Counted from the stretch's first letter, positions 3,382 to 18,439 are shown. The stretch is DNA of 64,000 nucleotides from an uncultured Gammaproteobacteria bacterium (GCA_964496095.1 CAZBWU010000003.1:65901-129900); one strand, 5' to 3'. Made by a program: numbers and translations. The notes: generated by a model from the letters alone, not told the origin.

Positions 3382-3823
3382 TATGCCCCTTGCCCAAAAC
3401 AAAAAAGCCGAGTTTGAATATGAAATCCTAGAGAAATACGAGGCTGGTTTGGTATTATCAGGACAAGAGGTAAAATCCGCTAAACTTGGACAAATAAACT
3501 TAAAAGGCTCATACATAACTTTCCACGGTACCAATGCTTCCGTGTTAAATATGCATATTAATAAATACAAAGCTGTGGGTCCCCTACCTGACTATGACCC
3601 GACCCAATCCCGCCGAGTTCTTCTCCATAAAAAACAAATCGCCTATTTAAGGGCAAAATCTATGGAAAAGGGCTTGACAATTGTGCCTTTGCGAGTGTAT
3701 ACTAAGGGACGACTTCTAAAAATAGAAGTGGCTGTAGCTAGAGGAAAAAAACTTTACGACAAAAGAGAAACTCTAAAACAAAGAGATTCTAAAAGAGAAA
3801 TGGCTAGAGAAAGAAAGAATTAA
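3382..3823 (+). CDS. smpB: SsrA-binding protein SmpB
   Basis: MPLAQNKKAEFEYEILEKYEAGLVLSGQEVKS...LLHKKQIAYLRAK...EVAVARGKKLYDKRE. Typical SmpB length and motifs, and it is followed immediately by a tmRNA. Confidence 0.85.
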
Positions 3824-3832
3824 ATTATTTTT

Positions 3833-3911
3833 TGTCATTCTGAACAAAGTGAAGAATCCCTGTCTAAATTACCGAACGGACAGAGATCCTTCGTTACACT
3901 CAGGATGACAA
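3833..3911. repeat. MITE-like palindromic element, family A
   Basis: tgtcattctgaacaaagtgaagaatccctgtc...gacagagatccttcgttacactcaggatgacaa, between smpB and ssrA. Confidence 0.75.
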
Positions 3912-3926
3912 ACGTTTTTTTACAAA

Positions 3927-4323
3927 GGGGGTGCCGGGCTTTCGATAGAAGCTGCTGGCTACACTCGCATACCGAGGAAGCTCTGATCCTCGTTAATCAC
4001 AAAGGGCAACATAATAAGTGCAAACTTGTTATCAAAAGCTAAAGTTGCTTTCAGTAAAATGTTTACTGTCAACGCTTTCGCTCCGGTAATGGCTTAATAC
4101 CCATTTACCCATCACGCCGGCAACACCTAGTAGCCGAATCGTGGTGTCATTCACTAGGCGTAGTCATATAGGAGCGCCGGCTGTTATATGGCGAAGTTAC
4201 TCGGCTCGTCAATCCAATTTTCGTCCTCTTCTATTGGATTGATTAAAGAACAAGAGACACTAAGTATGTAGACGGTTTAGTCAAAGTTATCTAGACGCGA
4301 GTTCAACTCTCGCCACCTCCACA
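3927..4323 (+). ncRNA. ssrA: tmRNA (ssrA)
   Basis: Begins GGGGTGCCGGGCTTTCGATAG and ends with a tRNA-like T-arm and acceptor GACGCGAGTTCAACTCTCGCCACCTCCACA. An internal tag frame ends ...NAFAPVMA-TAA. Position directly downstream of smpB. Confidence 0.75.
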
Positions 4324-4429
4324 GAGAAATCCGGATTTACGGATAACTCAGATATACAGATGATAACGTCTGGACAAACGGTTCAAATCCGTAAATCTGG
4401 ATTATCTGCATATCCGGATAAATCTTAAT

Positions 4430-4975
4430 ATGAGAATATCCCACAAAAAACATAAACCAGAGCCAAAAAAAGTATTTTTCTATAACCAAGGTATTACTGT
4501 ACCAGAAGTTATGGTCTTGGCAAATGACGGCACAAATTTAGGTATCACAAAAACTCCCGACGCCTTAAAAATGGCTCGCGAGCAAGAACTTGATTTGGTT
4601 CTTATCAATCCTAAATCTTCTCCGCCAGTTGCTAAAATTATCGATTTTGGACAATTCCGTTACCAGCAAGAAAAAGAAGAGCGTCTCAAACAAGCTCACG
4701 CCCATGTGACAGAAGTAAAAGGTATCAGATTGTCCTTACGCATCTCTCCTCATGATATGGAGATAAGACAAAACCAAGCTATGCAATTTCTAAATGAAGG
4801 CGATAAAGTAAAAGTAGAAATAATTCTCAAAGGTAGAGAACAACAACAAAGACCAATGGCTGCAGCAGTGGTAGAAAAATTTGTCAGTAATGTTAATGCC
4901 ATTTTACCGGTACGCAAAGACCAAGAAGTAGAATTCCAATTTAACAAAGTGACAGCAATAATCGCTAAAAAGTAA
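4430..4975 (+). CDS. infC: translation initiation factor IF-3
   Basis: ...VMVLANDGTNLGI...ALKMAREQELDLVLINPKSSPPVAKIIDFGQFRYQQEK...GDKVKVEIILKGRE.... Conserved infC-rpmI-rplT order. Exact start uncertain, since IF-3 often uses a non-ATG start. Confidence 0.85.
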   Translation: MRISHKKHKPEPKKVFFYNQGITVPEVMVLANDGTNLGITKTPDALKMAREQELDLVLINPKSSPPVAKIIDFGQFRYQQEKEERLKQAHAHVTEVKGIRLSLRISPHDMEIRQNQAMQFLNEGDKVKVEIILKGREQQQRPMAAAVVEKFVSNVNAILPVRKDQEVEFQFNKVTAIIAKK

Positions 4976-4988
4976 ATTTAATAATAAC

Positions 4989-5060
4989 ACGAATGGGCTC
5001 GAGCCCCACAAATTACACAAATTTATTAGTGTCATTAGTGAGTCGAGAATCGACCATTCG
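4989..5060. repeat. palindromic repeat, second family (acgaatg...cattcg)
   Basis: acgaatgggctcgagcccc...gagtcgagaatcgaccattcg. Same termini and internal GC palindrome as the copy at 20531..20605. Confidence 0.55.
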
Positions 5061-5077
5061 CATTTATCCTAACTTAT

Positions 5078-5272
5078 ATGCCTAAAATGAAAACACACAA
5101 GGCCACAGCCAAAAGATACCAAGTCACTAAGACTGGTAAAATCATGAAACGTACAGCCGGACAAAACCATTTTAATTCCCGTGAAAACGGAAATACCGGT
5201 CGAAACAAAAAGTCAGACGTGGTCACAAGCCAAACCTTACGCCAAGCCATGAAAACTAACTTACCTTATTAA
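5078..5272 (+). CDS. rpmI: 50S ribosomal protein L35
   Basis: MPKMKTHKATAKRYQVTKTGKIMKR... matches the L35 N-terminus. Downstream of infC. Confidence 0.9.
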   Translation: MPKMKTHKATAKRYQVTKTGKIMKRTAGQNHFNSRENGNTGRNKKSDVVTSQTLRQAMKTNLPY

Positions 5273-5301
5273 AAGATTAATCCAGATAAATCTAAAATAA
5301 T

Positions 5302-5649
5302 ATGACACGTATCAAAGGTGGTTTACTCCACGCTAAACGCAGACGAGGCATTCTCAAACACACAAAAGGTTTCCGCTGGGGAAGAAAATCAAAAATCAAG
5401 TTAGCTAAACCAGCTAAAATGAAAGCTGGTCAATATGCTTTCAATGACCGCAAGATCAAGAAGCGCACCAGCCGAGGTTTGTGGAATATAAAAATCAACG
5501 CTGCTGTTCGCAACTTCCAAATGAGCTACAGCAAATTCATTGACGCTCTCAAGAAAAACAATATTGCTCTTGATAGAAAAGTCTTAGCCGACTTGGCTCA
5601 GAATCACGAAGCTATATTTGCTAAAATAGTTGATGCAGTGAAGAAATAA
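5302..5649 (+). CDS. rplT: 50S ribosomal protein L20
   Basis: MTRIKGGLLHAKRRRGILKHTKGF...KAGQYAFNDRKIKKR...LWNIKINAAVRN..SYSKFI matches L20. Confidence 0.9.
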   Translation: MTRIKGGLLHAKRRRGILKHTKGFRWGRKSKIKLAKPAKMKAGQYAFNDRKIKKRTSRGLWNIKINAAVRNFQMSYSKFIDALKKNNIALDRKVLADLAQNHEAIFAKIVDAVKK

Positions 5650-5729
5650 AACACTTCAGTCCACAGACAAACCCTTGAGCCTGCTAAATGTCGCTTTGCG
5701 ACAATCCCCAAGGGGATTATTTAATAGGC

Positions 5730-5855
5730 TTGACAAAAATCTAAAAATTAGTAGTATATAACTACCTCCAAGGCCCAGAGAATGCGTGGTATAAGGAGGA
5801 AACTTACCCTCCTTAGTTTCCTCTCCTCTTACCACGCACTATCTGGGTCTTTTTG
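5730..5855 (+). ncRNA. candidate small structured RNA with own promoter-like element (may also act as a convergent terminator)
   Basis: TTGACA at 5730 and a TAGTAT/TATATA -10 about 17-19 nt later. Then an approximately 85 nt extended hairpin (cccagagaatgcgtggta...taaggagg/cctcctta...taccacgcactatctggg) followed by a T-run. It sits between convergent genes and has no ORF. Confidence 0.3.
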
Positions 5856-5856
5856 T

Positions 5857-6129
5857 TTACAAATTTTTATAAATATCATGCTTACCAATAGAGATAAACA
5901 AAATATCGCCATTTTTTTGGCGCTCAAAAATAATACGATAATTACCAGTAATAGAAATTGACCATAACTCACTTAACTTTCCATGCAAGGCATGAAGGCG
6001 AAGGGATGGATGTAAAGGATTTTCTTTAAAAATTTTTTCTTTTCTCGCCGCTAAAACAAAGAGATCTTTTGGTAATTTTTTTAACTCCACCACAAATTTA
6101 GAAGAATACAAAATACTTGTGATAATCAT
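5857..6129 (-). CDS. type II toxin, RelE/ParE family
   Basis: 90 aa, ...HPSLRLHALHGKLSELWSISITGNYRIIF.... Its start overlaps the upstream small gene by 4 nt. Confidence 0.6.
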   Translation of the reverse strand: MIITSILYSSKFVVELKKLPKDLFVLAARKEKIFKENPLHPSLRLHALHGKLSELWSISITGNYRIIFERQKNGDILFISIGKHDIYKNL

Positions 6130-6353
6130 ACCAGATCAGCCAAAGAATTTGCTTTGATTGACTTGCCGGCTACATACTCCTTACGTGCGTCTCGCGCTGT
6201 TTTTAAAAGCTCAGTTTCAGAAATAAGCTCCTCATCGGCTTTAAACAAATACTTCACATAGGAGCTAACGGAATTATAGCCCCGTTTCTTCGCAAAGATT
6301 TTGATTTGTTTAAGATCGGAAGTAGGTAATGATAAGCTAGTAATTTGACGCAT
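6126..6353 (-). CDS. antitoxin of type II TA pair (RelB/ParD-like)
   Basis: 75 aa acidic/basic small protein immediately upstream of and overlapping the RelE-like gene. Classic TA gene order. Confidence 0.5.
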   Translation of the reverse strand: MRQITSLSLPTSDLKQIKIFAKKRGYNSVSSYVKYLFKADEELISETELLKTARDARKEYVAGKSIKANSLADLV

Positions 6354-6451
6354 AAATATACTGAAGTGAATTATAGAATATAGTGTAATACAGATGTACT
6401 ACAATGTCAAGAGTTAGAGAAATATGTTATCCAATGAAATCAACTACTATG

Positions 6452-7102
6452 CTAATCCACTATACCGCTTGGATTAAGTGTAATATCCCCACTCAAACCA
6501 TAAATACTGCTTTCTAAAACTGCTGATATTGTATACCTGATAGCACCATCGTACGTAGTATAAATGTAAGATTGATTAGGCAATGGATCTGATGGAATCA
6601 ATCCCATATATGGCATAGAGCATCCAAGTATTTTAAAACCATCATTATTTAAACAAGCAAAGTTGGCACTTCCTAAAACAGCGCCTGTGCCCGCTGGATA
6701 AACATTATGATCGGTATAATAAAGTTCTAAAGCTACTTGTAATTGCTTTAAATCTGAAAGGCGCCTATTATCACGTTCTTTTTGTTTTGTATTCTCAACA
6801 GCTACAGGATTTGGAGCGACCAATAATAGTTTAGCTTTTTTCAATGCTTCTTGGTAAGATTTATTAGCAGCCGCTATTTTGGCTCTACGTTCATCTTGCG
6901 CTTTTTTTATGGCTACGTTATAGGCTGTATTTCTAGCTTTTCGATCAGTTTCTTTTCTCTTTATCTCAGCCTTCTGCGCCTCAATTTTTTGTTTTGCTTG
7001 TAATTGAGTTTGCCCAACCGAGACGGAAGTAGCTTTGACCAAAGACGCGCTGGCGGAAAACATAACTACTGCCATCAGAAAAATTCCTACTATTTTTTTC
7101 AT
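6452..7102 (-). CDS. Sec-exported pilin-domain protein (type IV pilin paralog lacking the prepilin leader)
   Basis: The C-terminal 110 aa (RDNRRLSDLKQLQVALELYYTDHNVYP...SMPYMGLIPSDPLPNQSYIYT...ITLNPSGIVD) is about half identical to the pilin at 21484..21933. The N-terminus is a classical signal peptide (MKKIVGIFLMAVVMFSASASLV) followed by a K/A/E/R-rich helical stretch, not the G|FTLIE prepilin motif. Confidence 0.5.
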   Translation of the reverse strand: MKKIVGIFLMAVVMFSASASLVKATSVSVGQTQLQAKQKIEAQKAEIKRKETDRKARNTAYNVAIKKAQDERRAKIAAANKSYQEALKKAKLLLVAPNPVAVENTKQKERDNRRLSDLKQLQVALELYYTDHNVYPAGTGAVLGSANFACLNNDGFKILGCSMPYMGLIPSDPLPNQSYIYTTYDGAIRYTISAVLESSIYGLSGDITLNPSGIVD

Positions 7103-7547: not shown

Positions 7548-8042
7548 ATAAACTTATGAGTTAACTTATACCAGCAAGTATACCAAAAAGCCCATAATTT
7601 ACAACATAACCTAGACATCACAAAAACTCCTATCATAAACATCTTTCAACCTTGCTTTGTCCATAACATGTAGTTCTAAAATCGCTCGGGTAAGCGCAAC
7701 ATTCAACAAATCTCGCTGCACCTTTTTAATTTCTGGGATTATCCAATATACAAACAACAAAAAAATTGGCTAACATAAGCCAACTAATTTTAGCGAGGAG
7801 TATGGGACGAAGTGGGAACCTGGGTGGCTAGGGTTAGCCAAATTTAATGATAAAGGATTGACAAAAGCTTAATTATATGATATTATTATTTGTTCTATTA
7901 GTTATTAACTAATAGACTTTGTTCCTTATACATCATGGTAGAAGATACTTTTTAAAGCAGGTACATCTTGCTTTACAGAACATCTTCTACCACACAACAA
8001 CAGGTGAGCGTCAATGACGCCACACCAAGGGAGAGAGATTCT

Positions 8043-8555
8043 ATGAAGAAGGAAAGTCTCTGGCTACTGCCGCTCGCGATCGCCATCGTCTTCTGGATCA
8101 CGGCGATGATCGTCGCTATCCACAACGATTATGTGGGACGGGCCATCCTCTACGGCACGATCTTCGTCCTCAACTTGATCATGCTCGTCGAGTACATGAT
8201 CAAGGTGGAGGTTGCGAAGCTGACCAAGAAGTACGACATCGGCTCTTCGTTCATCATGGTTCCCGTGACGAAGGCCGACACGGCCAGCTGCCCCGAGCAC
8301 GCCGCACAGATCAGCTACGATCGATACACGATTACGTTCCAGGGCTGTCTGGAGCACGGTGCCGATCTAGCGCTCTTCGTGAATGGCAATGCCAAGGAAG
8401 TGGCCGAGCACGCGCGCACCCTCACGGACGCAGGCTCCTTCCTGGATCAGGTCGCGAAGCGACAGCAGATCCCGACGGAGATCGTCGCGAGCCTGCGCGC
8501 CAAGCTGCCGGAGCTGTTCCCCCAGCAACCAGACCCCGACGGCGGCGTACACTGA
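8043..8555 (+). CDS. hypothetical membrane protein encoded by a GC-rich (foreign-composition) cassette
   Basis: Start MKKESLWLL follows aagggagagagattct (SD-like). Two TM helices, then a soluble domain. Codons are G/C-ending throughout, unlike all flanking genes. Opposite-strand ORFs here are treated as GC artefacts. Confidence 0.5.
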   Translation: MKKESLWLLPLAIAIVFWITAMIVAIHNDYVGRAILYGTIFVLNLIMLVEYMIKVEVAKLTKKYDIGSSFIMVPVTKADTASCPEHAAQISYDRYTITFQGCLEHGADLALFVNGNAKEVAEHARTLTDAGSFLDQVAKRQQIPTEIVASLRAKLPELFPQQPDPDGGVH

Positions 8556-8676
8556 ACAACTCGAAGCTCCCAACAACATTCCTATGGAGTAAGGATCAGG
8601 AGGCCTTCACGTAGCTTTATATATAATATAGATTTTGTATACATAGCTACGAAGGTCTCTGAAAAAAATTTATTTA

Positions 8677-8711
8677 AAAAACAACCTTTCTAACAGAAGG
8701 TTGTTTTTTGT
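8677..8711 (+). terminator. rho-independent terminator
   Basis: aaaaacaacctttctaacagaaggttgttttttg, a perfect stem plus a T-run downstream of the GC-rich gene. Confidence 0.6.
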
Positions 8712-8716
8712 TTAAC

Positions 8717-8790
8717 CTGACGGATGTGGTGACCGTCCGTCTACGCAAATTATGGCCATTTTTATATAATTTTTGGTCACAACGTGGACA
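8717..8790. repeat. island boundary element, copy 1 (tgtggtgacYgtccg ... tatggccat ... tttggtcacaaNNtggNcacaatt)
   Basis: About 70% identical to 13948..14030 and to a shorter copy at 10491..10568. Contains a tandem TGGNCACAA direct repeat. Confidence 0.55.
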
Positions 8791-9097
8791 CAATTTTATA
8801 TGTCTAGCCAGTACAAAAAAATAGCGACTGAATTTACAGAATTATCTATATATGATATAGTTATTTTGTCTTTGACAATTGAGCCTAACAGCCGCAGCAC
8901 AGGGTGCAATCCCCTGGGTAATAGTTGGAGTATTTTTCTCTACTGCTCTGAATTATTCATCTTATTTTGAATTTATTATGGAAAATAAAAAAACTTTAAA
9001 TTTAAGAAAACTATCCTTTAAAATGAACTTAAAATTAAGTACCAAAATAATTACCGTGGCAGGCCAACTGCTGTAAGGCTAAATTGTTAAGATTAAA

Positions 9098-9129
9098 ATA
9101 AAAGACAGGGTTTTAAACCCTGTCTTTTT
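9098..9129 (-). terminator. rho-independent terminator (bidirectional hairpin)
   Basis: aaaagacagggttttaaaccctgtcttttt, just downstream of the minus-strand gene ending at 9161. Confidence 0.6.
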
Positions 9130-9160
9130 GAATTTTTATATTCAAGCTATATATATAATT

Positions 9161-9508
9161 TTACAGCAAACTTTCAATACTTACATGCTTTGCTTTAAAA
9201 CTATAAGCCTTTTCTTCTGGTATTGCTCTGTTTGCAGCAACTACCCGAAACATGTCTCTTATCTCATTATTTGTGTTAATAAAAGAAACTTCTTTCTTAT
9301 TCCAAGTTTTTCTCTGTAAATCTTCTTTTAAACGAAGCATGGCGTGAGCTGCAGAACGAGAAATAAATTCTACATCCTCAAAATCTAAATTAACCGTTTT
9401 TGAATCGGTTTTTAAAATTAGCTTTTCTAAATTCTCTATTAAATCTCGAGAGCTTATAATAGGGGCTAAAATGCTAATTAATTTTAAGTTTGCAATTGTT
9501 TCTTTCAT
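9161..9508 (-). CDS. STAS-like small protein (DUF4325-type)
   Basis: 115 aa with ...VNLDFEDVEFISRSAAHAML..., the hallmark of the STAS-like DUF4325 family. Immediately downstream of a GHKL ATPase gene. Confidence 0.5.
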   Translation of the reverse strand: MKETIANLKLISILAPIISSRDLIENLEKLILKTDSKTVNLDFEDVEFISRSAAHAMLRLKEDLQRKTWNKKEVSFINTNNEIRDMFRVVAANRAIPEEKAYSFKAKHVSIESLL

Positions 9509-9536
9509 ATGTATTTATTATACCTGACCAATCATT

Positions 9537-10388
9537 TTATTCCAAATATGGACTGATGTCAATAGTACCTTTTGGCTTCATAATTCTATAAGCGATAATA
9601 ACTCCATGCCATGAAAAATCTCCTAATTTTACTATTTTTTCTTCTTTATTATCCGCAATCAAAGCAGATGATCCGGAAATAATCATAAAAGATCCTCCCA
9701 GAGCTTCACAGACCACTCTTTTTGAAGTCCGAACTCCATAACCTCTTTCCTTATCTTTTTTAGTAGAATGTCCATCCATTGCTTGAATTATAGCCTCATC
9801 ATCAGAAATTTTTAGATTCTTCTCGTCAGCATATGTTGCCGCCAAACCTTTTCCTGTATCTACAATACACATATCTAGATACTCTTTATTTGGATAATAC
9901 TGCCCAAAGATATACCCTTTACTCTCTTTACTATGCTCAAAAATATTAGTTACTAACTCACTTATAGGATAATAGATAGCATTTCGTGCACCTAGAGTTG
10001 CCCCTACTACTTTATAAATCATCTGACTAAATAAAGACTCTAGTCTTTCTCTTTCTGCACCTGCTTCACGCCGTAAAACACTAATGGGAACATAGGTTTT
10101 TCCTTGCTGAACTTCTGCTTCCAAATCAGACACACTATTTACACCATCAGGAAATTTTATCGTATTGGCATATGATTTTGTGGCGTGATTTTCGTTATTC
10201 ACTGTACTGTTAGTTTTATGGATATAAGCACTAATTGGAAGAGAAATTAGAGGGCACAAAAATTTAATCTGAGACACGTCAAATTCAATTTTCTCACCCC
10301 ATTCAATACCTTTAAGAGTATTATAAAGTGAAACAAAAGAGCTAATTAATTTATCATTTTTAGGCGCAGGTACTATGATTTTTCTCAT
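9537..10388 (-). CDS. histidine-kinase-like (GHKL) ATPase
   Basis: N-box ...ISELVTNIFEHS..., G1 ...VDTGKG..., G2 ...ERGYGVRT.... No receiver, HisKA or DNA-binding domain. Confidence 0.55.
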   Translation of the reverse strand: MRKIIVPAPKNDKLISSFVSLYNTLKGIEWGEKIEFDVSQIKFLCPLISLPISAYIHKTNSTVNNENHATKSYANTIKFPDGVNSVSDLEAEVQQGKTYVPISVLRREAGAERERLESLFSQMIYKVVGATLGARNAIYYPISELVTNIFEHSKESKGYIFGQYYPNKEYLDMCIVDTGKGLAATYADEKNLKISDDEAIIQAMDGHSTKKDKERGYGVRTSKRVVCEALGGSFMIISGSSALIADNKEEKIVKLGDFSWHGVIIAYRIMKPKGTIDISPYLE

Positions 10389-10490
10389 AAAATAAGGCAG
10401 GTCAAAATTCTAAATAACTTATCAATTTTAAATTTACTACATTTTATTGTACTTAAACAATGATAAAAAAGCAATTTAAAATTTTCTAAA

Positions 10491-10568
10491 CAGGTATCGA
10501 GGCTGTCTGAATATCAAAAATATGGCCATAATAGGCAAGAAGTTTGATCACAAAGTGGGCACAAGTTT
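10491..10568. repeat. island boundary element, copy 2 (shorter)
   Basis: gaggctgtctgaatatcaaaaatatggccataataggcaagaagtttgatcacaaagtgggcacaagtttt aligns with copies at 8717 and 13948. Confidence 0.45.
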
Positions 10569-10589
10569 TAAATTTGTAATCTCAAAATA

Positions 10590-10636
10590 AAAAGATGCAA
10601 ATCACTAACGTGGACTTCACTGGTTCGATCCCAGCC
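10590..10636 (+). tRNA. tRNA 3' fragment (pseudo-tRNA: T-arm, acceptor 3' strand and CCA only)
   Basis: ...cactggTTCGATCccagccctcgaagCCA has a T-loop consensus and terminal CCA, but no complementary 5' acceptor strand (ttcgagg) upstream. Followed by a hairpin and T-run. Confidence 0.35.
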
Positions 10637-10707
10637 CTCGAAGCCAAGATAAAATAAAAAAGCCCTACTTTTGAAAGGCTTTTTTATTTATATATATATT
10701 ATGAACC

Positions 10708-11097
10708 TTATTTTTTATAATGTAAATAAATAAGGCTAGAAATTTTTGTAAGGTTAACGATAATTATGGTGGCTAGCAACCACCAGTCTATATGATGTGT
10801 CACAAAAATCTGATAAATCAATCCGCCAGAAATAAATATTGTCGCTGCTATGGTTGCGACTCGGTTGGAAAGGTTCCGATGCATAACCTCTCTCTCATCC
10901 TCACTTTTTATCTCTCCCGCCAAGGATATTAAAACTGAGTATAAAACCAAAAAAGTGCAGATAGAAATAATTGCCGGCATAGACATTTCATTCATTGGCT
11001 CAAACAGTAAATAACCAGTGACCAGGGCAATGAGTGCCAGAAGTAAAATATAGTAGATCAAAATTTTGAGACGCGGCATAAAAAATAAATTAAACAA
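10708..11097 (-). CDS. small 4-TM membrane protein (partner of upstream XRE regulator)
   Basis: 129 aa with four hydrophobic helices. Directly downstream of a short HTH gene, as in known HTH plus small membrane protein pairs. Confidence 0.4.
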   Translation of the reverse strand: MFNLFFMPRLKILIYYILLLALIALVTGYLLFEPMNEMSMPAIISICTFLVLYSVLISLAGEIKSEDEREVMHRNLSNRVATIAATIFISGGLIYQIFVTHHIDWWLLATIIIVNLTKISSLIYLHYKK

Positions 11098-11293
11098 TTA
11101 ATTAATAGTAAATATTTTTTCCACCGGCAGATCAAAAAATTTAGCTACTTTTAAAGCCAGCCCCAAAGATGGTTCGTAATTGCCTTTTTCCATAGCAATA
11201 ATTGTCTGGCGGGAAACTTTAAGCGCGCTGGCAAATTCTTCCTGCGTAGCGCCTTGAGTTTCCCGCAATTGTTTTATTTTATTTTTAATCATG
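11098..11293 (-). CDS. XRE-family helix-turn-helix transcriptional regulator
   Basis: [61 protein letters not shown] is a canonical Cro/C1-type HTH, 65 aa. The longer ORF upstream of this ATG overlaps the preceding gene. Confidence 0.7.
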
Positions 11294-11296
11294 TAT

Positions 11297-12958
11297 TTAT
11301 CCAAAAGTAAATGTATATACTTCAAGGCCTGGAGCTGGAATCTCAATAATAATTTCATGCGACGTATAACTTGTGGAATCAAATAAAGTATACAGATCCG
11401 AGCCGGAAATAGTGACCGGCTTTTGTTTTTGGCCATCAACCGTAATTTGTACAGTTATCGGTTGTTTGGCCTCAGCTACCATATGGATTTTACCAGCAAA
11501 AAAATTCATTTTTATTTTACCCGCACCTTTACTTAACTGAACAACCTCTGGAGTAAAGTTCCAAGTACCCTGTAGCGCAAAGTGATTGCTCTCCAATTGT
11601 CTTGGTAAGTAGTATTCATTTTCAGATTTATCTGGAGATTGAGACTTAGTTAAATATTCTAATCTGTTAGTACCAAAATAAATTTCTGGAGTGCCAATAT
11701 TTTGATTTGTTTCTACTTCTGCTTTGGTAACTGTTTTATTCATCCCCAAAAGTTCGGCAATGGCATTTTCGGTTTCTTCGTATTTACCTTCGCCAAAATG
11801 ATAATAACGTATATTACCATCACGATCAATAAGATAGTGAGCAGGCCAGTAATTATTATTAAAATTATTCCAGGTGCCAAAGTTATTATCCAAAGCGACT
11901 GGATAATTAATCCCATGTCGTTTAACCGCAGTTTTTACATTATCCAATACTTTTTCAAATTCAAATTCTGGTGTATGTACACCAATAACTACAAAACCCT
12001 GATCTTTGAATTTTTCATACCAGGACGTTACGTACGGTAATGTACGAATACAATTAATACAAGAATATGTCCAAAAATCTACCAGCACCACCTTACCTTT
12101 CAGATCGTTCATTGTCAGATTTTTATCTGTGTTAATCCAAGCTTTAATATTTTTAAAATCAGGCGCCTGCCCATAGTCGGGAAGGTCAACCGCAGTATTT
12201 TTGATATTGGTTTCTTGATTAATTATAGGCAAGACATTTAATTGTGGTTTTATTAATTTTTGTTCGAGCGTCGGGAAGCTGTAGTAATCCAATAGTTTCG
12301 CTTGCAACTTGAGATCATATTGAAAGTACATAGCCACTGCCAATAGCAAAATAATGGCACCAAATATTTTTTGAATACTATTAGCATATTTTGCGACAGA
12401 TCGTACTTTGGTAGTGATAGCTTGTCCCCCATAGGAAATAGCCAACATCGGCACACCGGCACCAACAGCGTAGGCAATGAGCATAGGAATTGCTTGTCCA
12501 AAGTTTGATTGAGTAGCAATAAGAGTAAGGATACTCCCCAAGATTGGCCCAGCACACGGGGTCCAGATAAGACCCAAAATCATACCCAAGACAAAACCAC
12601 CAAAATTTTTATTGCCTGCTTTTTGACTTATATTTTGGGCTTTGGTGGAAAATCCGGATAATCGTTGCGCTAATATTTCAAACAGTTTTGGAAAAAGCAT
12701 AAGCAACCCAAAAATTGCCAAACCAGCCACGGCAATATTGCGCAATAAGTCTGGCGCAATCATTAATTTTTGGACAATAAGAGACAAAGTCAATCCAGCT
12801 ATGGAAAACGTCGTAATAAATCCAAGTGTAATAAAGATTGGCCTGGTTTTACTAGTATGACCAACCGATACCCCCAAAATAATTGGGAGCATCGGCAGGA
12901 TGCAGGGCGCGCCAATTGTGAGCACGCCCGCGAGAAAAGAGAAAATAATTTGCAACAT
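11297..12958 (-). CDS. DipZ-like fusion: CcdA/DsbD-type membrane thiol-disulfide transporter, TlpA/ResA-like thioredoxin domain and a C-terminal domain
   Basis: TM1 ...[10 protein letters not shown]... and TM4 ...[11 protein letters not shown]... are the CcdA cysteines. The periplasmic ...[19 protein letters not shown]... is a thioredoxin CxxC. This is the Mycobacterium DipZ architecture. Confidence 0.7.
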
Positions 12959-12959
12959 T

Positions 12960-13607
12960 TTATTTTAAATTACTGATTAATTCGGCAATGCCACCACCAT
13001 TCCATCTACTAATTTGGTTGCCGTTAGCATCAACCTGTATAAATGTATGTTGGTAAGTAACCCCATATTTTGTTTTCAGCTCTTTTTCAGTATCGTAGTT
13101 AGTTTTAAGTACCGTTACATTTTTAGGAATTTGACTGGTATGATCCAGAAAGTCTGCATTGGCTTCCTTACAATTCGGACACCATGAAGCCCAAAAGAAT
13201 AACACTGCTTTGCCATCATTTTTGGTGGCTTCAGCGAGTGCCGCAGGAGAGTAGTCCTTATACATTCCCACTGTGTTTGCAGTCATCATTTTTTCCTTTT
13301 CCATAGCCGCTTCTTTTTCGGCCATCATTTTTTCTTCTGGAGTCATTATCTTTTCTTTTTCCATCATCGCCGCTTTTTCTTTGTCCTCCATTTTTTGTTT
13401 TTCCATCGCTACTTGTTCAGATTCCATTTTCTCTTTCTCCATCATGGCGGTCTTTTTCTGCGATTCGGTCATGGCGTCTTCTTTTTTTATCATATTTGCA
13501 GACTGATCAGCCGAATTCTTTGTTTGGTTAGTATTAGCACAACCGGCTCCGGCAATAGCTATTACTCCCAATAACATAGTCACGCCGACGACTAACTTGT
13601 ATTGCAT
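12960..13607 (-). CDS. lipoprotein thioredoxin with N-terminal Met-rich repeat region
   Basis: Lipobox ...AIAGAGC.... About seven M-E-K-E-K-M-type repeats, mirrored by imperfect tandem DNA repeats at about 13290-13450. C-terminal thioredoxin ...VLFFWASWCPNCK.... Confidence 0.6.
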   Translation of the reverse strand: MQYKLVVGVTMLLGVIAIAGAGCANTNQTKNSADQSANMIKKEDAMTESQKKTAMMEKEKMESEQVAMEKQKMEDKEKAAMMEKEKIMTPEEKMMAEKEAAMEKEKMMTANTVGMYKDYSPAALAEATKNDGKAVLFFWASWCPNCKEANADFLDHTSQIPKNVTVLKTNYDTEKELKTKYGVTYQHTFIQVDANGNQISRWNGGGIAELISNLK

Positions 13608-13947
13608 AAGATTTTAAATTATCACCCAATTTAAATAAAGGGCTGATTTATATTAATTTTTTGTCTAGAGCAAAAAATTAAATTTATTTATTACTTAATT
13701 GTAAAGTAATAAAAAAGTAATGTCAAGTCTACTTTACATTGTTTATATCCTTACATGTTGATAACTTTACATCAATACTAATATTAGCTCTATTTTTATA
13801 GCAATTTTTCAGGTATCAAAAAACTCAGCGTGTGTTCCATTGTACAAATCACTAATATATCCAAGTAACTTGCAGAATACTAAAATTAAAAAAGCTTTTC
13901 TTAATGAAGGGTTTTTATAATTAAAAGTTTTAAATAAGTATCTGTAC

Positions 13948-14030
13948 AGGCTGTGGTGACTGTCCGAAGGTGTGAAATATCGCCATAATCCCCTCTTTTT
14001 TTGGTCACAAAATGGTCACAATTTACAAAA
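13948..14030. repeat. island boundary element, copy 3
   Basis: ggctgtggtgactgtccg...aaatatcgccataat...tttttggtcacaaaatggtcacaattt. About 105 bp from the 3' end of tRNA-Asp. Confidence 0.55.
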
Positions 14031-14135
14031 TGTGACCGCCGTACCAAGTTTAAAATAACAAAAGTTGTAGGCTCGATTTCCGCTCTACTAAAACAAAAAA
14101 ACACCATTGTGTAGTGTAATATTTGTTTCTAGCTA

Positions 14136-14212
14136 TGGCGGGTCGGACGGGACTCGAACCCGCAACTTCTGCCGTGACAGGGCAGTGCTCTAACCAGTTG
14201 AACTACCGACCC
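14136..14212 (-). tRNA. tRNA-Asp (GTC), CCA encoded
   Basis: Reverse complement GGGTCGGTAGTTCAACTGGTTAGAGCACTGCCCTGTCACGGCAGAAGTTGCGGGTTCGAGTCCCGTCCGACCCGCCA. Cloverleaf fits with anticodon loop CUGUCAC, and it closely resembles E. coli tRNA-Asp. Confidence 0.9.
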
Positions 14213-14283
14213 AAATTGTCTATTTACAATAAGAAAATTATACAAAAAAACTTGGATTATGTCAACTGGCTGAATTTGTAACA

Positions 14284-14313
14284 TTGACAAAATGAGCGTT
14301 TTAGAAATATACT
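14284..14313 (+). promoter_or_regulatory. sigma70-like promoter (TTGACA-N18-TATACT)
   Basis: ttgacaaaatgagcgttttagaaatatact, 25 nt upstream of the ATG at 14338. Confidence 0.5.
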
Positions 14314-14337
14314 CTAGCATATGAAAGAGTCCCAGCC

Positions 14338-14595
14338 ATGATGAAAAAAGAGGATGCCCGAAAGTGGCTACTGGTCACAGTGAAGCTCGCGGGTGGACCG
14401 TCAAGGTGCACCAAGAGAACAGTACTAAACGGTAAAGTACTGGCAACCATCAAGGGCTTCGCCTACAACAATTTCGGTGACGAACTCACCCTCGAGGAGT
14501 CGACTACATTCGGAAAGCTCCTCAAAATCATAAAGGGAAACATCTCCAGAATGAAGCCCTACAGGGCAGTTATTCTCCAGAAAAAGGAGTCGTAA
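14338..14595 (+). CDS. hypothetical small protein (85 aa), first gene of a GC-rich two-gene cassette
   Basis: G/C-rich codon usage unlike the host genes. Promoter upstream. Its stop overlaps the next start (TAAATG), suggesting coupled translation. Confidence 0.45.
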   Translation: MMKKEDARKWLLVTVKLAGGPSRCTKRTVLNGKVLATIKGFAYNNFGDELTLEESTTFGKLLKIIKGNISRMKPYRAVILQKKES

Positions 14596-14898
14596 ATGCC
14601 AGGCCCAATCTGGATCATGATCCTCGCGATCCCCAACTGCTTCTTCTCGCCACCAGTCAAGATGGATCTGGGAAACCTGACATTCCTGGTCGGTTCCAGA
14701 TTCAACGTGATGGAAGATCACATTGACCCTGTCGGCAACCTGAAGTTCAATCTTTCCTGGTTGCTCAAGGGCCTGGGCAGTGACGCAGAGAAAACACTGC
14801 GCGAACTGCTCGACACCTGGGAAGTGGACATGGATCAAATCACGATCACGATCCCATGGGGATGCTACGAACCAGCGACCCGAGACAAGAACGACTAG
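14596..14898 (+). CDS. hypothetical small protein (100 aa), second gene of the GC-rich cassette
   Basis: Same composition as the first gene. Followed at about 15064 by a strong terminator. A 165 aa antisense ORF (14425..14922) is considered a GC artefact. Confidence 0.45.
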   Translation: MPGPIWIMILAIPNCFFSPPVKMDLGNLTFLVGSRFNVMEDHIDPVGNLKFNLSWLLKGLGSDAEKTLRELLDTWEVDMDQITITIPWGCYEPATRDKND

Positions 14899-15063
14899 AT
14901 CAGAGAGAAGGCCTGACAGCAACGGTGCTCTGCAGAGGAGGTCAACCTCAAGACAAGGGACATCAACCTCGTTCGCAACACCTGATTTGTTTCTAAAAAA
15001 TTGGAAGCAGATCAGGAGGGCGACCGCGAACGAGATTTGTTTGTTCCTAAACTTTCTTAAAAT

Positions 15064-15098
15064 AAAAACCCCGCTCTATAAAGCGGGGTTTTTATTTT
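15064..15098. terminator. bidirectional rho-independent terminator
   Basis: aaaaaccccgctctataaagcggggtttttatttt lies between the convergent GC-rich cassette and the 15108..15437 gene. Confidence 0.7.
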
Positions 15099-15107
15099 AT
15101 AAATTTT

Positions 15108-15437
15108 CTACTTAAGACTACTAGTCACCTGATCCTCCAACTGTTGCGCATCTTCCGCATACTGCCAATTACCCATCATTCCTCCCCTGTACCCAGCATC
15201 ATAAGTATCTCCGCGATACATCATCATTTGGTGTGGATAATTTCTTCCATGACCATACCCGAAACCACCAAGATAAGCTCTTAACATTCCGAGCTTGTAA
15301 CCCATGCAAAAAACTATCATAAGTACCACCGCGCCCAGAAGCCAACAAAGCCAAGATTTATGACCCCAAACCATGCTATGTCCTCCACAACAACTTCCAC
15401 CTTCTTTACTACCGTTTCCCATTTTGTCGTCGCACAT
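15108..15437 (-). CDS. small Gly/Cys/His/Met-rich membrane protein, hypothetical
   Basis: N-terminus ...GGSCCGGHSMVWGH..., one TM, then a tail rich in G, Y, M and H. Downstream of ppsA on the same strand. Confidence 0.4.
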   Translation of the reverse strand: MCDDKMGNGSKEGGSCCGGHSMVWGHKSWLCWLLGAVVLMIVFCMGYKLGMLRAYLGGFGYGHGRNYPHQMMMYRGDTYDAGYRGGMMGNWQYAEDAQQLEDQVTSSLK

Positions 15438-15460
15438 ATGCTTCTAAGTTAGTTAGTTAA

Positions 15461-18439
15461 TTAATTTATTTTAAAATCTTTTATGCTTTGAAATATTTCA
15501 TCAAACACATCAATAGAACCTTTAAATACAATAACATATTTTGATTGTTCGGAGCCATTTGGAAAAAGAATTACGACCCCTGTTGCACCTTCATCTCCAC
15601 TATCTCGAGGAGGATATTCAAATTTTTTTATTTGAAATCCATTCCAAACAGACGAACTTGTAATATACTCTGTTTTTCCAAGACTAAAAGATTCTTTAGA
15701 AACAGAAAATTCGGAGAAAAATCCAGTATTGCTTTCACCTTGACTAGTAAAATAAACCCGATTTTTAGACCTTTTTACACTTAACGCATAGGGATAGGAA
15801 ATTGTAAAACTAGGCAAGTCATCACCGTTTTCCACATAGGTAGAAGCTGAATTTGCTTTTTGTTGGGCTAAAGCTAAATCCATTTCTCTCTTTGCATCAG
15901 ACTTTGCCAAAGCCACCTGATTTGCCACCTCTATCTTTACCTCCTCCGCCGACATTTTATTTGCATTTACATTCTGGCAAGTATAACCACCCAATATTGT
16001 CGTGAGTCCCAATACCCCAAAAATCAAAAGCATCTTAGAAGCCACATTCATCTTGAAACTGCTGGTTGGTTTGGCAGCGACTTTTTTCTCCATACTGGCA
16101 ATCCGCTCACGAGTTTTGATTACTGTGTCCGGATTGAGAGAAATACTATCTATTCCCTCTTGCACCAAAAATTCAGCAAACTCAGGATAATCACTTGGCG
16201 CTTGACCACAGATACCAACTTTACGCTTATTTTCATGCGCAACTTTTATTACTTGTCTAATCAAAGTTTTTACCGCTTCGTTTTTTTCATCATAAACATG
16301 ACTCACAAGAGCCGAATCTCTATCTACACCGAGTGTAAGCTGGGTCAAATCATTTGAGCCAATACTAAACCCATCAAAAATTTCACAGAATTCTTTGGCT
16401 AAAATTACATTCGCCGGAATCTCACACATCACATAGACTTTGAGACCGTCTTTGCCTCGCTCCAGGCCAAATTCTTTCATCACTGCCAAAACTTTTTTAC
16501 CTTCTTCTATTGTCCGACAAAATGGCACCATCACTATCAAATTTTTCATCCCCCACTCATTGCGGACTTTTTTGATAGCTTCACATTCTAGTTTAAATCC
16601 AGCTTTATATTTTGGATCATAATAACGAGATGCGCCTCTCCAACCAATCATTGGATTTTCTTCTTTTGGTTCGTAGGCTTGCCCACCGATTAACGTTGCA
16701 TATTCATTGGTCTTAAAATCTGACAAACGGACAATCACATCGTTAGGATGAAAAGCAGAAGTGATAAAGGCAATACCCTCGGCGAGCTTGTCTACACAGT
16801 ACTTGGATTTATCTTTATAATCGCTTGTGAGCGCGTCTATCTTGGCTTTAACATCTTTGGGCTGATCTTTATAATTGACTAGCGCCAAGGGGTGAATTTT
16901 AACAAAATTTGTAAAAATAAATTCTTCGCGAGCTAGACCGACACCGTCATTTGGTAAATTAGCGAGCGTGAAAGCATTGCTCGGATCACCCACATTCATC
17001 ATGATCTTGGTGCGAGTATCAGGGACATTTTTTATTTCAGTACGAATAACTTCAAATGGTAATAGGCCTTTGTACACATAACCAGTTTCGCCCTCGGCAC
17101 AAGACACAGTAACCTCATCTCCGGTTTTGATAGTTTGTCTGGCTTTGGCAGCGCCCACAATAGCCGGTGTGCCTAGTTCACGACTGACGATAGCGGCGTG
17201 TGAAGTCTTACCACCTTGTTCGGTGACAATAGCGCTAGCAATACGCATGATAGGCTCCCAGTCAGGATCAGTAATACGAGTAATCAAAACTTCTCCAGGT
17301 TTGAACTGTTTCATTTGCTTGGGCGAGTTGATAACTCTAGCTCTGCCCTGGCCAATTTTTTGACCAACACTTGAACCAGTGAGCAATACTTTTCCTTTTT
17401 CTTTTTGTTTTATTTGATATTGCTCTATGGTATTTATTATTTTTGATTGAACAGTTTCAGATCTAGCTTGTACAATAAATAGCTGCCCGCTAATTCCGTC
17501 TTTGGCCCATTCTATATCCATCGGATGACCATAGTGTTCTTCTATCAATACGCCCCATTTGGATAATTGCAAAACTTCGTCATCGGTCAAACAATAATTT
17601 CTTTGATCTGATGGTTTTACTTTTTCTTGCTTAGTACCAATTTTTCCGTAAATTAACTTTACTTCTTTACTTCCCAAGCGCCTACTAATAATCGACTTAA
17701 AATCATTTTTAATTCCATCTTTAAAAACATAAAACTGATCCGGAGTCACCCGGCCTTTGACCACATACTCACCAAGTCCATAAGAAGCATTGATAAGGAC
17801 TACGCCTTTGAAGCCTGATTCGGTATCTAGAGTAAACATTACACCACTAGTACCCATATCAGATCGCACCATTTCTTGTACACCCACTGAAAGAGCAATC
17901 GCTGTATGCTCATAGCCTTTATCTTCGCGATACGAGATAGCTCGGTCGGTAAATAGCGAAGCAATACATTTTTTACTTGCCAGCAACAATTCTTTTTCAC
18001 CACAAACATTGAGATAAGTTTCTTGCTGTCCAGCAAAACTAGCATCAGGCAAATCTTCGGCCGTGGCGCTAGAGCGCACAGCCACATCTAAATTAGCTTT
18101 CTTAGAAGATTTACAAAGCGCTTTATAAGCAATACCTATTTCTTTTTCTATTTGTTTAGGAAATTTGGAATCAAGAATCATTTTGCGAATTTTGCTTCCT
18201 ACTACTGCCAAATCATGCACATTTTTTTTATCTAAGCCTCTTAGAGTATCTTTTATTTTTTTATCTAAATTATTTTCTTTTATAAAGTCCCAATAAACAT
18301 CGGCGGTCAACGCAAAACCATTGGGTACTTTCATACCCTTAGAAGTAAGTTTGGCATACATTTCACCAAGGGAAGCGTTTTTACCTCCAACCGAAGGAAT
18401 GTCTTTGATGGTTAGGTCTTTAAACCAGCTTATATACAT
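15461..18439 (-). CDS. ppsA: phosphoenolpyruvate synthase (pyruvate, water dikinase) with an approximately 196 aa C-terminal extension
   Basis: N-terminal ...SVGGKNASLGEMYAKLT... and a PEP-utilising TIM-barrel C-domain are collinear with PpsA for about 790 aa. The frame then continues without a stop into MNVASKMLLIFGVLGLTTILGGYTCQ..., a signal/lipobox-like segment plus about 170 aa. Confidence 0.8.
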   Translation of the reverse strand: MYISWFKDLTIKDIPSVGGKNASLGEMYAKLTSKGMKVPNGFALTADVYWDFIKENNLDKKIKDTLRGLDKKNVHDLAVVGSKIRKMILDSKFPKQIEKEIGIAYKALCKSSKKANLDVAVRSSATAEDLPDASFAGQQETYLNVCGEKELLLASKKCIASLFTDRAISYREDKGYEHTAIALSVGVQEMVRSDMGTSGVMFTLDTESGFKGVVLINASYGLGEYVVKGRVTPDQFYVFKDGIKNDFKSIISRRLGSKEVKLIYGKIGTKQEKVKPSDQRNYCLTDDEVLQLSKWGVLIEEHYGHPMDIEWAKDGISGQLFIVQARSETVQSKIINTIEQYQIKQKEKGKVLLTGSSVGQKIGQGRARVINSPKQMKQFKPGEVLITRITDPDWEPIMRIASAIVTEQGGKTSHAAIVSRELGTPAIVGAAKARQTIKTGDEVTVSCAEGETGYVYKGLLPFEVIRTEIKNVPDTRTKIMMNVGDPSNAFTLANLPNDGVGLAREEFIFTNFVKIHPLALVNYKDQPKDVKAKIDALTSDYKDKSKYCVDKLAEGIAFITSAFHPNDVIVRLSDFKTNEYATLIGGQAYEPKEENPMIGWRGASRYYDPKYKAGFKLECEAIKKVRNEWGMKNLIVMVPFCRTIEEGKKVLAVMKEFGLERGKDGLKVYVMCEIPANVILAKEFCEIFDGFSIGSNDLTQLTLGVDRDSALVSHVYDEKNEAVKTLIRQVIKVAHENKRKVGICGQAPSDYPEFAEFLVQEGIDSISLNPDTVIKTRERIASMEKKVAAKPTSSFKMNVASKMLLIFGVLGLTTILGGYTCQNVNANKMSAEEVKIEVANQVALAKSDAKREMDLALAQQKANSASTYVENGDDLPSFTISYPYALSVKRSKNRVYFTSQGESNTGFFSEFSVSKESFSLGKTEYITSSSVWNGFQIKKFEYPPRDSGDEGATGVVILFPNGSEQSKYVIVFKGSIDVFDEIFQSIKDFKIN

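What the first reader, a model, noticed from the sequence alone, without database searches (positions are those of the whole stretch)
8717..14030. tRNA-Asp-adjacent accessory island partitioned by three copies of a 60-80 bp boundary element
Copies at 8717..8790, 10491..10568 and 13948..14030 share tgtggtgacYgtccg ... (t)atggccat ... tttgRtcacaaNNtggNcacaaKttt. The tail is a tandem TGGNCACAA repeat one helical turn apart, as in arm-type or iteron-like protein-binding sites. They divide the region 3' of tRNA-Asp into two cargo modules: the GHKL-STAS pair, and the XRE-membrane-DipZ-Trx set. No integrase is present. This may be a degraded or tandemly accreted integrative-element array, or a site-specific recombination hotspot served by a recombinase encoded elsewhere.
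Basis: seen in the sequence. Interest (0 to 1): 0.6.

Follow-up and report, generated by a model that had tools for sequence, protein, structure and literature searches.

The report
Leftover integrase docking sites beside tRNA-Asp
Three 80-base repeats next to a tRNA-Asp gene of a Magasanikbacteria (CPR) genome look like leftover integrase docking sites from mobile elements that have lost their integrase, so the region is most likely a decayed patchwork island, an ordinary kind of feature apart from one unexplained half of the repeat.

Summary
There are three direct copies (8721-8800, 10492-10571, 13949-14028, + strand), and the tandem TGGNCACAA-NN-TGGNCACAA occurs nowhere else in the 64 kb window.

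The tandem pair behaves like an integrase arm-type binding site. Among 112 genome loci from many phyla that carry it, 35 have it within 300 bp downstream of a tRNA/tmRNA 3' end. About a quarter of the loci examined have it abutting or overlapping the 3' end of a tyrosine integrase gene, in different frames and on both strands.

In close Magasanikbacteria relatives the same tRNA-Asp carries integrase-excisionase-Rep elements, once two in tandem. Their integrase ends with this same tandem pair, 115 nt from the tRNA.

Copy 3 fuses the last 17 to 19 codons of such a lost integrase, plus its arm, to a 50-nt left half shared with copies 1 and 2. The window has no integrase.

The GHKL-STAS pair lies in an integrase-less, att-bounded element in one relative. 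The Trx-DipZ-XRE-membrane operon sits elsewhere in two relatives.

The left half (GGTGACCGTCCGAAG...) is conserved in two other assemblies and is not explained.

The parts
8721..8800 (+). Unit 1. Box5 GGTGACCGTCCG at 8728-8739; palindrome ATGGCCAT at 8752-8759; tandem arm-type pair TGGTCACAA-CG-TGGACACAA at 8774-8793.
10492..10571 (+). Unit 2, the most diverged copy. Degenerate box5 GAGGCTGTCTG at 10499-10509; ATGGCCAT at 10522-10529; tandem pair TGATCACAA-AG-TGGGCACAA at 10545-10564.
13949..14028 (+). Unit 3. Box5 GGTGACTGTCCG at 13955-13966; ATCGCCAT at 13979-13986; tandem pair TGGTCACAA-AA-TGGTCACAA at 14002-14021. From about 14000 rightwards it is homologous to the integrase 3' end of relative L123.
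13999..14058 (+). Remnant of the last codons of a lost tyrosine integrase gene (FWSQNGHNLQNVTAVPSLK*). It overlaps the tandem pair.
   Evidence: tblastn of the L123 integrase: residues 349-365 match 13999-14049 at 88%, E = 9e-5. Translation. L123 and L124 integrase C-termini.
14022..14135 (+). P' arm between the tandem pair and the tRNA. It includes an inverted arm-like site, TGTGACC, at 14032-14038.
   Evidence: Conserved with L123 (86%), L042 4118-4232 (86%) and L169 (76%). Sequences.
14136..14212 (-). tRNA-Asp(GTC), the integration target. The 22-nt att core TTCGAGTCCCGTCCGACCCGCC is its 3' end (14137-14158).
   Evidence: The core is duplicated at element ends in L124, L119, L042 and L169.
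9094..10390 (-). Cargo block 1: GHKL ATPase (9537-10388) and STAS protein (9161-9508).
   Evidence: Pfam. 86% nucleotide identity to L169 9999-11299, where the block lies inside an integrase-less element bounded by tRNA-Asp + P' arm and P arm + core fragment.
10605..13746 (-). Cargo block 2: thioredoxin, DsbD/DipZ-thioredoxin, XRE and membrane-protein operon, with its own promoter (13698-13726) and its 3' tRNA-like fragment plus terminator (10605-10690).
   Evidence: Pfam; promoter. The block is homologous as a whole to L171 and L172, where it sits in another context without units.
8688..8716 (+). Terminator hairpin directly upstream of unit 1. The terminator-plus-unit pair is conserved as a composite in other assemblies.
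   Evidence: window 8667-8801 aligns to L042 7130-7269 (72%); window 8669-8714 aligns to L016 1752-1796 (85%).
8833..8861 (+). Sigma-70-like promoter (TTTACA-17-TATAGT) 40 nt downstream of unit 1, pointing away from it.
   Evidence: Equivalent outward promoters follow 3 other units (L042a, L042b, L119).

Best explanation
The three repeats are relics of the attachment-site arms of integrative elements that target the 3' end of tRNA-Asp. Each ends in a pair of 9-bp direct repeats (TGGNCACAA, 11-bp period). This is the arm-type site that the N-terminal domain of a heterobivalent (lambda/P2-type) tyrosine integrase would bind.

In intact elements of close relatives, one such pair overlaps the last codons of the integrase gene (P' arm, 115 nt from the tRNA). 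A second pair lies in the P arm at the far end, next to a 22-nt copy of the tRNA-Asp 3' end.

In this genome the integrase, excisionase and replication genes have been lost. What remains is a patchwork island of cargo blocks separated by arm relics. Copy 3 is a fusion of the lost integrase's C-terminal codons and P' arm with the 50-nt left half that all three copies share.

Shown:
- the repeats themselves;
- the association of the motif with integrase and tRNA genes;
- the integrase remnant in copy 3;
- the intact and tandem elements in relatives;
- the variability of the locus.

Inferred:
- that an integrase binds the pair;
- that the array arose by serial integration followed by deletion or recombination at the sites;
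- that an integrase supplied in trans might still use them.
For: Motif versus context
- 35 of 112 genome loci carrying the tandem pair have it 1-300 bp downstream of a tRNA/tmRNA 3' end. Only 2.2% of the bases in those loci qualify.
- The only recurrent neighbouring protein family is a tyrosine integrase (27 loci), confirmed as PF00589 with arm-binding or SAM-like N-terminal domains.
- The integrase 3' end abuts or overlaps the pair in three reading frames and on both strands, so the conservation is at the DNA level.
- In Methylotenera L033 the pair occurs in both arms, next to a duplicated tmRNA 3' end.

Relatives
- L123 and L124 have int-HTH_17-Rep elements at tRNA-Asp. The pair lies in the integrase tail, 115-116 nt from the tRNA.
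- L124 has two elements in tandem, with a core fragment and a P-arm pair between them.

Window
- Window 14000-15505 matches L123 at 86%, and homology ends at the pair.
- An integrase remnant survives in copy 3.
- There is no integrase in the 64 kb.

Cargo
- GHKL-STAS lies inside an att-bounded, integrase-less element in L169.
- The Trx-DipZ operon is elsewhere in L171 and L172.
- L173 and L138 have the interval without any of this.

Literature
Against: - No second copy of the tRNA-Asp core exists in the window (at most 5 mismatches in 23 allowed). Copies 1 and 2 are therefore not canonical attL/attR junctions.
- The left 50 nt of the unit is absent from the canonical P and P' arms of relatives. 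Yet it is conserved, with a sharp left edge, in seven copies from three assemblies. A plain deletion scar would not be expected to behave this way.
- No integrase was seen next to a full unit in any locus held.
- Integrase binding is inferred from context only.
Confidence: 0.75

Rival explanations
1. The 80-nt unit is a live, self-contained recombination site. It would consist of an inverted arm-like site, a core-like 8-mer CCGTCCGA identical to the centre of the tRNA-Asp core, an AT-rich spacer and two direct arm sites. An integrase encoded elsewhere would use it to insert, excise or shuffle gene cassettes, giving an integron-like cassette array built on a lambda/P2-type integrase.
For: - Box5 and the tandem pair are identical in 6-7 of 7 copies from three assemblies, while the spacers vary.
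- The left edge is sharp, and the terminator-plus-unit composite is conserved.
- L042 and the window both show unit-cargo-unit-cargo arrays in direct orientation.
- Block 2 is a chromosomal operon that has moved in between two units.
- Box5 contains GGTGACC, the inverse of the arm-site core.
- Box5 shares the 8-mer CCGTCCGA with the att core. My estimate of the chance of such a shared 8-mer is about 0.004.
Against: - No presence/absence polymorphism with breakpoints exactly at two units was found. L169 lacks block 2 but keeps only a half-site and no unit.
- No integrase was seen beside a unit.
- The 8-mer is inverted relative to the tRNA core in the window.
- Only seven copies are known, and scans of metagenome and viral collections found no more.
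Confidence: 0.12
2. The units are transcription control regions. Operator or activator sites for a DNA-binding protein would govern the promoter that lies just downstream, and the resemblance to integrase arm sites would be secondary.
For: - 4 of 7 units have a strong sigma-70-like promoter 30-53 nt downstream pointing outward. In L119 that promoter drives tRNA-Asp.
- The ATTATGGCCATAAT-like palindrome in the window copies would suit a dimeric HTH protein.
Against: - Units 2 and 3 and the L016 unit have no such promoter.
- The palindrome is not conserved outside the window.
- The Trx and GHKL genes keep their own upstream regions in relatives without units.
- The tandem pair is the same motif that sits in integrase tails and att arms in many phyla.
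Confidence: 0.08
3. The tandem repeats are iterons of a replication origin belonging to the integrated plasmid-like elements, or the unit is a small RNA gene.
For: - Elements in relatives encode Rep-like proteins (PF23343, HTH_36).
- A viral contig (L002) carries nine or more tandem TTTGGTCACAA copies.
Against: - In relatives the pairs lie at the element ends beside the core, kilobases from rep.
- The association across phyla is with integrases and tRNAs, not with rep.
- No Rfam match.
- Fold z-scores of the copies run from -1.9 to +1.45.
- No covariation in the alignment of seven copies.
- Cumulative GC skew falls steadily through the region with no reversal.
Confidence: 0.03

Closest known systems
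Arm-type (arm-binding) sites of heterobivalent tyrosine integrases, especially the P2 type (consensus tgTGGaCa; PMC3448106). Lambda arm sites C/AAGTCACTAT are cited from memory.
   Same: - Short direct repeats in helical phase.
- At least two on either side of a core.
- Next to an integrase with an arm-binding N-terminal domain.
- The target is a tRNA 3' end.
- TGGACA is shared with the P2 consensus, and GTCAC with lambda.
   Different: - In the window the integrase and the second core copy are missing.
- One pair overlaps the integrase's own last codons.
- The motif is found almost unchanged across many phyla.
- Binding has not been shown.
CIMEs (cis-mobilizable elements) and accretion arrays of genomic islands at tRNA genes, as described for streptococcal ICESt1/ICESt3-type elements (cited from memory).
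   Same: - Integrase-less segments that retain att-site relics.
- They sit at a site where related genomes carry integrase-bearing elements.
- Tandem accretion is seen in relative L124.
- L169 holds an att-bounded, integrase-less element.
   Different: - The window lacks duplicated cores around its modules.
- The junction relic is an 80-nt unit whose left half is not part of the canonical arms.
- The host is a CPR bacterium and the elements are small (int-xis-rep), not conjugative.
Integron cassette arrays (attC sites)
   Same: Direct array of short conserved sites separating unrelated gene modules.
   Different: - No IntI-type integrase, attI or Pc.
- The units do not fold as attC-like hairpins.
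- The cargo genes carry their own promoters and are mostly on the strand opposite to the units.

Membership tests
att-site arm of a heterobivalent tyrosine integrase | Two or more short direct repeats spaced about one helical turn apart | tested here: met
   TGGNCACAA-NN-TGGNCACAA in all three copies, with 0.03 expected by chance.
att-site arm of a heterobivalent tyrosine integrase | Repeats lie in arms on both sides of a core that is duplicated at the element ends | tested here: inconclusive
   Met in relatives and other phyla (L124, L169, L119, L042, L033). In the window only copy 3 lies next to a core (the tRNA-Asp 3' end). No second core copy exists.
att-site arm of a heterobivalent tyrosine integrase | Cognate integrase with an N-terminal arm-binding domain encoded beside the site | tested here: not met
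   No integrase in the 64 kb, only a remnant of its last 17 to 19 codons. The feature is met in L123 and L124 and in 27 loci of other phyla.
att-site arm of a heterobivalent tyrosine integrase | Integrase N-terminal domain binds the repeats | not testable with these tools
   Needs EMSA or footprinting.
Integrase-less att-bounded element (CIME-like) | Segment flanked by attL- and attR-type sites at a locus where relatives carry integrase-bearing elements | tested here: inconclusive
   The same locus carries integrase-bearing elements in relatives. L169 has a fully bounded integrase-less element holding GHKL-STAS. In the window the flanks are units, not core-containing att sites.
Integron attC array | IntI integrase with attI and Pc; attC sites that form imperfect hairpins | tested here: not met
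   No integrase. No significant fold on either strand. The consensus structure has 7 pairs and no covariation.
Iterons of a replication origin | Repeat cluster adjacent to a rep gene or origin | tested here: not met
   No rep gene in the window. In relatives the pairs lie at the element ends, far from rep.
Known RNA family (Rfam) | Covariance-model match | tested here: not met
   No hit over the units at the gathering threshold or at E up to 10.

The most novel reading that the evidence does not exclude
The 80-nt unit may be a compact, autonomous att-like site that a lambda/P2-type integrase encoded elsewhere uses to capture and shuffle promoter-bearing gene cassettes. Its parts are an inverted arm site, an 8-bp core-like segment identical to the centre of the tRNA-Asp core, a spacer and two direct arm sites. 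Cassettes moved this way could include relocated chromosomal operons and the odd GC-rich cassettes. This would be an integron-like system in CPR bacteria built on a different recombinase architecture.
Probability: 0.12. Interest if true: 0.75.

Novelty: new member of a known kind. Interest (0 to 1): 0.4.

Why it matters
- It identifies the L20-ppsA/tRNA-Asp interval of Magasanikbacteria as an integration hotspot. CPR bacteria have small genomes in which mobile elements are little described.
- It shows how integrase-less islands there can still be read through their arm-site relics.
- The near-invariant TGGTCACAA pair at integrase 3' ends and tRNA flanks in many phyla could be a practical marker for delimiting integrative elements.
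- The conserved left half of the unit, and its link to outward promoters and GC-rich cassettes, is a small open question.

Tried and rejected
- **tRNA-like fragment as att core.** The 3' fragment at 10622-10646 matches neither the tmRNA nor tRNA-Asp. It belongs to cargo block 2, which L171 carries without units.
- **RNA gene.** No Rfam hit, no significant folds, and no covariation. The z = -3.2 fold of unit 2 plus the tRNA-like fragment has no counterpart in the other copies.
- **Left half as decayed integrase coding sequence (LGH...YAH region).** All frames contain stops and there is no profile match to integrase 3' regions.
- **Fourth degenerate unit upstream of the GC-rich cassette at about 7800-7850.** Not supported.
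- **Collection scans for the full unit.** The metagenome scan gave 9 chance-like hits in GC-rich DNA. The viral scans gave none or chance hits. The first genome scan needed CACAA in both half-sites and therefore missed units with CACAG, so the census of units is incomplete.
- **Literature search for the motif itself.** It returned only primer matches.
- **Protein family searches on the GC-rich cassette proteins.** Pfam and PADLOC gave nothing.
- **Weak PADLOC hit.** The GHKL protein hit DrmA at E = 1e-6 over 125 residues. I treated this as GHKL-fold similarity only.
Full report
**Observation**

The three copies exist as described. The repeat finder recovers both halves of the repeat as three-member direct families, and MAFFT aligns them. 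A search for TGGNCACAA-NN-TGGNCACAA with up to two mismatches finds exactly three sites in 64 kb (8774, 10545, 14002, all + strand), against 0.03 expected. A profile built from seven copies (the three here plus four in other assemblies) delimits them as 8721-8800, 10492-10571 and 13949-14028; nothing else in the window scores better than E = 0.9.

tRNA-Asp(GTC) is at 14136-14212 on the minus strand, so the region lies 3' of it. The genes between the copies are all on the minus strand: STAS, GHKL, a membrane protein, XRE, DsbD/DipZ-thioredoxin and thioredoxin.

**What the tandem pair is**

I scanned one genome per species for TTTGRTCACAANNTGGNCACAA. This returned 112 loci from very diverse phyla.

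- 35 of the 112 loci have the pair 1-300 bp downstream of a tRNA or tmRNA 3' end, in either orientation. Only 2.2% of the bases of those loci qualify.
- Clustering all ORFs within 2 kb of the pair gave one dominant family, present in 27 loci. Pfam identifies it as tyrosine integrase PF00589 with Arm-DNA-bind or SAM-like N-terminal domains.
- The integrase 3' end abuts or overlaps the pair. The pair is read as FGHNLVT, as WSQNGH, or on the opposite strand as LVTNL. The conservation is therefore in the DNA, not in a peptide.
- In Methylotenera L033 one pair lies 125 nt after the tmRNA. A second overlaps the integrase 3' end, just before a repeat of the tmRNA 3' end. The sites are thus in both arms around a duplicated core.

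[quoted passage not shown] The CPR versions (TGGACACAA) contain that consensus core.

**The same locus in relatives**

ppsA homologues identify the organism as Candidatus Magasanikbacteria. The interval between L20 and ppsA differs in every relative examined.

| Relative | Identity to window | Content of the interval |
|---|---|---|
| L123 | ppsA 88% aa | Integrase (365 aa), HTH_17, HTH_36/Rep-like element directly 3' of tRNA-Asp. The pair lies in the last 17 codons of the integrase (...KIWSQNGHNLQNVTRVPS*), 115 nt from the tRNA. |
| L124 | ppsA 80% aa | Two such elements in tandem. The junction between them holds a 22-nt copy of the tRNA-Asp 3' end and a P arm with its own pair plus an inverted site. 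|
| Contig carrying P0002 | ppsA 86% aa | An integrase near ppsA (no DNA available). |
| L169 | GHKL 90% aa | No integrase, but a 3.9-kb segment bounded by tRNA-Asp + P' arm (one half-site) and P-arm pair + core fragment. It carries GHKL-STAS. |
| L170 | GHKL 74% aa | The island is inverted, with tRNA-Asp next to L20. |
| L138, L173 | ppsA 78% aa | No integrase, no units, no pairs. |

Contigs of several relatives end at or just after tRNA-Asp.

**Copy 3**

Window 14000-15505 aligns to L123 at 86% over 1.5 kb, and the homology ends at the left edge of the pair. The window keeps the integrase's terminal codons (FWSQNGHNLQNVTAVPSLK*); tblastn gives 88% identity over 17 residues. It also keeps the P' arm, which is conserved in L042 and L169 as well.

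To the left of the pair the window has, instead of the integrase, the 50 nt shared with copies 1 and 2. Copy 1 retains a similar short tail (WSQRGHNFICLASTKK*), while copy 2 is interrupted by stops. No integrase, excisionase or Rep homologue occurs elsewhere in the window.

**The cargo**

- **Block 1 (9094-10390, GHKL-STAS).** It is 86% identical to the block inside the L169 element.
- **Block 2 (10605-13746).** This is the four-gene Trx-DipZ-XRE-membrane operon with its own promoter and terminator. It is conserved as a whole in L171 and L172 at 73-75% nucleotide identity. There it lies next to OmdA-family genes, with no units, no pairs and no tRNA-Asp nearby. DipZ identities track ppsA identities. 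The operon is therefore an ordinary lineage gene set that has been relocated into the island in this genome.
- **The tRNA-like fragment.** The fragment with its terminator at 10605-10690 belongs to block 2, not to an att site.

**The unexplained half**

Full units occur, among everything fetched, only in the window (3 copies), L016 and L119 (one MAG) and L042 (2 copies). L042 is syntenic with window 3401-5854, and its assembly also holds the DipZ relative L171. All of these are therefore related CPR genomes, despite their 'Gammaproteobacteria' labels.

Across the seven copies, GGTGACCGTCCGAAG, GAAATAT and the pair are identical in 6-7 of 7, while the spacers vary. The left edge is sharp, and a preceding terminator is conserved with the unit. 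Four units are followed within 30-53 nt by a strong outward promoter; in L119 that promoter drives tRNA-Asp.

RNAalifold only pairs GTGACCG with the first arm site and finds no covariation. Box5 therefore contains an inverted arm-like site. The adjoining CCGTCCGA equals the centre of the 22-nt att core.

The canonical P and P' arms of relatives lack this half. The unit may be the arm of a second element type, or a compact att-like site. The data do not decide between these.

**Mechanism**

The most likely account (confidence 0.75):

1. Integrative elements of the int-xis-rep type repeatedly entered at tRNA-Asp.
2. Their arm-type pairs, being direct repeats in both arms and within the integrase tail, became breakpoints for deletion and rearrangement.
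3. The recombination genes were lost.
4. Cargo remained, including a captured chromosomal operon, separated by arm relics.

Binding by an integrase, and any present-day activity, are inferences.

The rivals are a live cassette site (0.12), a transcription control region (0.08), and iterons or an RNA gene (0.03). The evidence for and against each is given in the rival explanations section.

**Novelty**

This is a decayed, accreted island at a tRNA gene with arm-site relics. That is a known kind of feature, here in a little-studied lineage. The cross-phylum constancy of the pair and the conserved left half of the unit are the parts worth a further look.

Noticed in passing
window 7858-8716 and 14284-15099; also L016 2026-2726, L042 3293-3877 / 4611-6227 / about 6600-6900, L119 3243-3881 / 4327-4734 / 5228-6562: Self-contained cassettes with 57-66% GC sit in genomes of about 37% GC, next to the att relics. 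Each has a strong sigma-70-like promoter, a leader, an ORF and a similar terminator. None of the proteins hits Pfam or PADLOC. The cassette at 14284-15099 is conserved in relative L123. Their origin and function are unknown.
   Followed up: partly
window 10605-10690; L171 12250-12377 and 14101-14183: A tRNA-like 3' fragment (T-arm, acceptor strand, CCA: GGTTCGATCCCAGCCCTCGAAGCCA) followed by a terminator ends the Trx-DipZ-XRE-membrane operon. It is conserved with the operon in L171, which has a second, inverted copy. Together with unit 2 it folds with z = -3.2, but the other units lack such a partner.
   Followed up: partly
L011-L122 and viral loci L002-L010: The pair TTTGGTCACAA-NN-TGGTCACAA is nearly invariant at integrase 3' ends and tRNA/tmRNA flanks in Proteobacteria, Bacillota, Actinomycetota, Bacteroidota, Planctomycetota, Nitrospirota, Omnitrophota, CPR and other groups. 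Viral contig L002 carries nine or more tandem TTTGGTCACAA units preceded by three TTTGTTCACAC units.
   Followed up: partly
L016, L119 (CAYNEQ01) and L042, L171 (CAZETA01): These MAGs are titled 'uncultured Gammaproteobacteria'. However, L042 is syntenic with the window's SmpB-tmRNA-IF3-L35-L20 region at 75-85% nucleotide identity, and L171 carries a DipZ 85% identical to the window's. The taxonomic labels look wrong.
   Followed up: partly
window 13288-13486 (inside the thioredoxin gene 12960-13607, minus strand): The N-terminal half of the thioredoxin-like protein is a Met/Glu/Lys-rich repeat region (MEKEK-type units). It shows up as direct-repeat families D4, D8 and D10.
   Followed up: no
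window 5857-6353: A HigB-like toxin with an upstream small antitoxin-like ORF lies between L20 and the island. The same pair is found at the other end of the inverted island in L170.
   Followed up: no
L001, L135-L137: Short-read contigs of the source sample and of several relatives break at or within about 50 nt of tRNA-Asp. This fits repeated or polymorphic DNA at that site.
   Followed up: no
L138 14023-14037 and 14189-14263; L119 4934-4955 and 6793-6867: Extra copies of the tRNA-Asp 3' end occur in relatives that have no integrase. In L119 the fragment and the intact tRNA are in inverted orientation around a 1.9-kb segment. The tRNA-Asp orientation relative to ppsA differs among relatives, which suggests past inversions.
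   Followed up: partly
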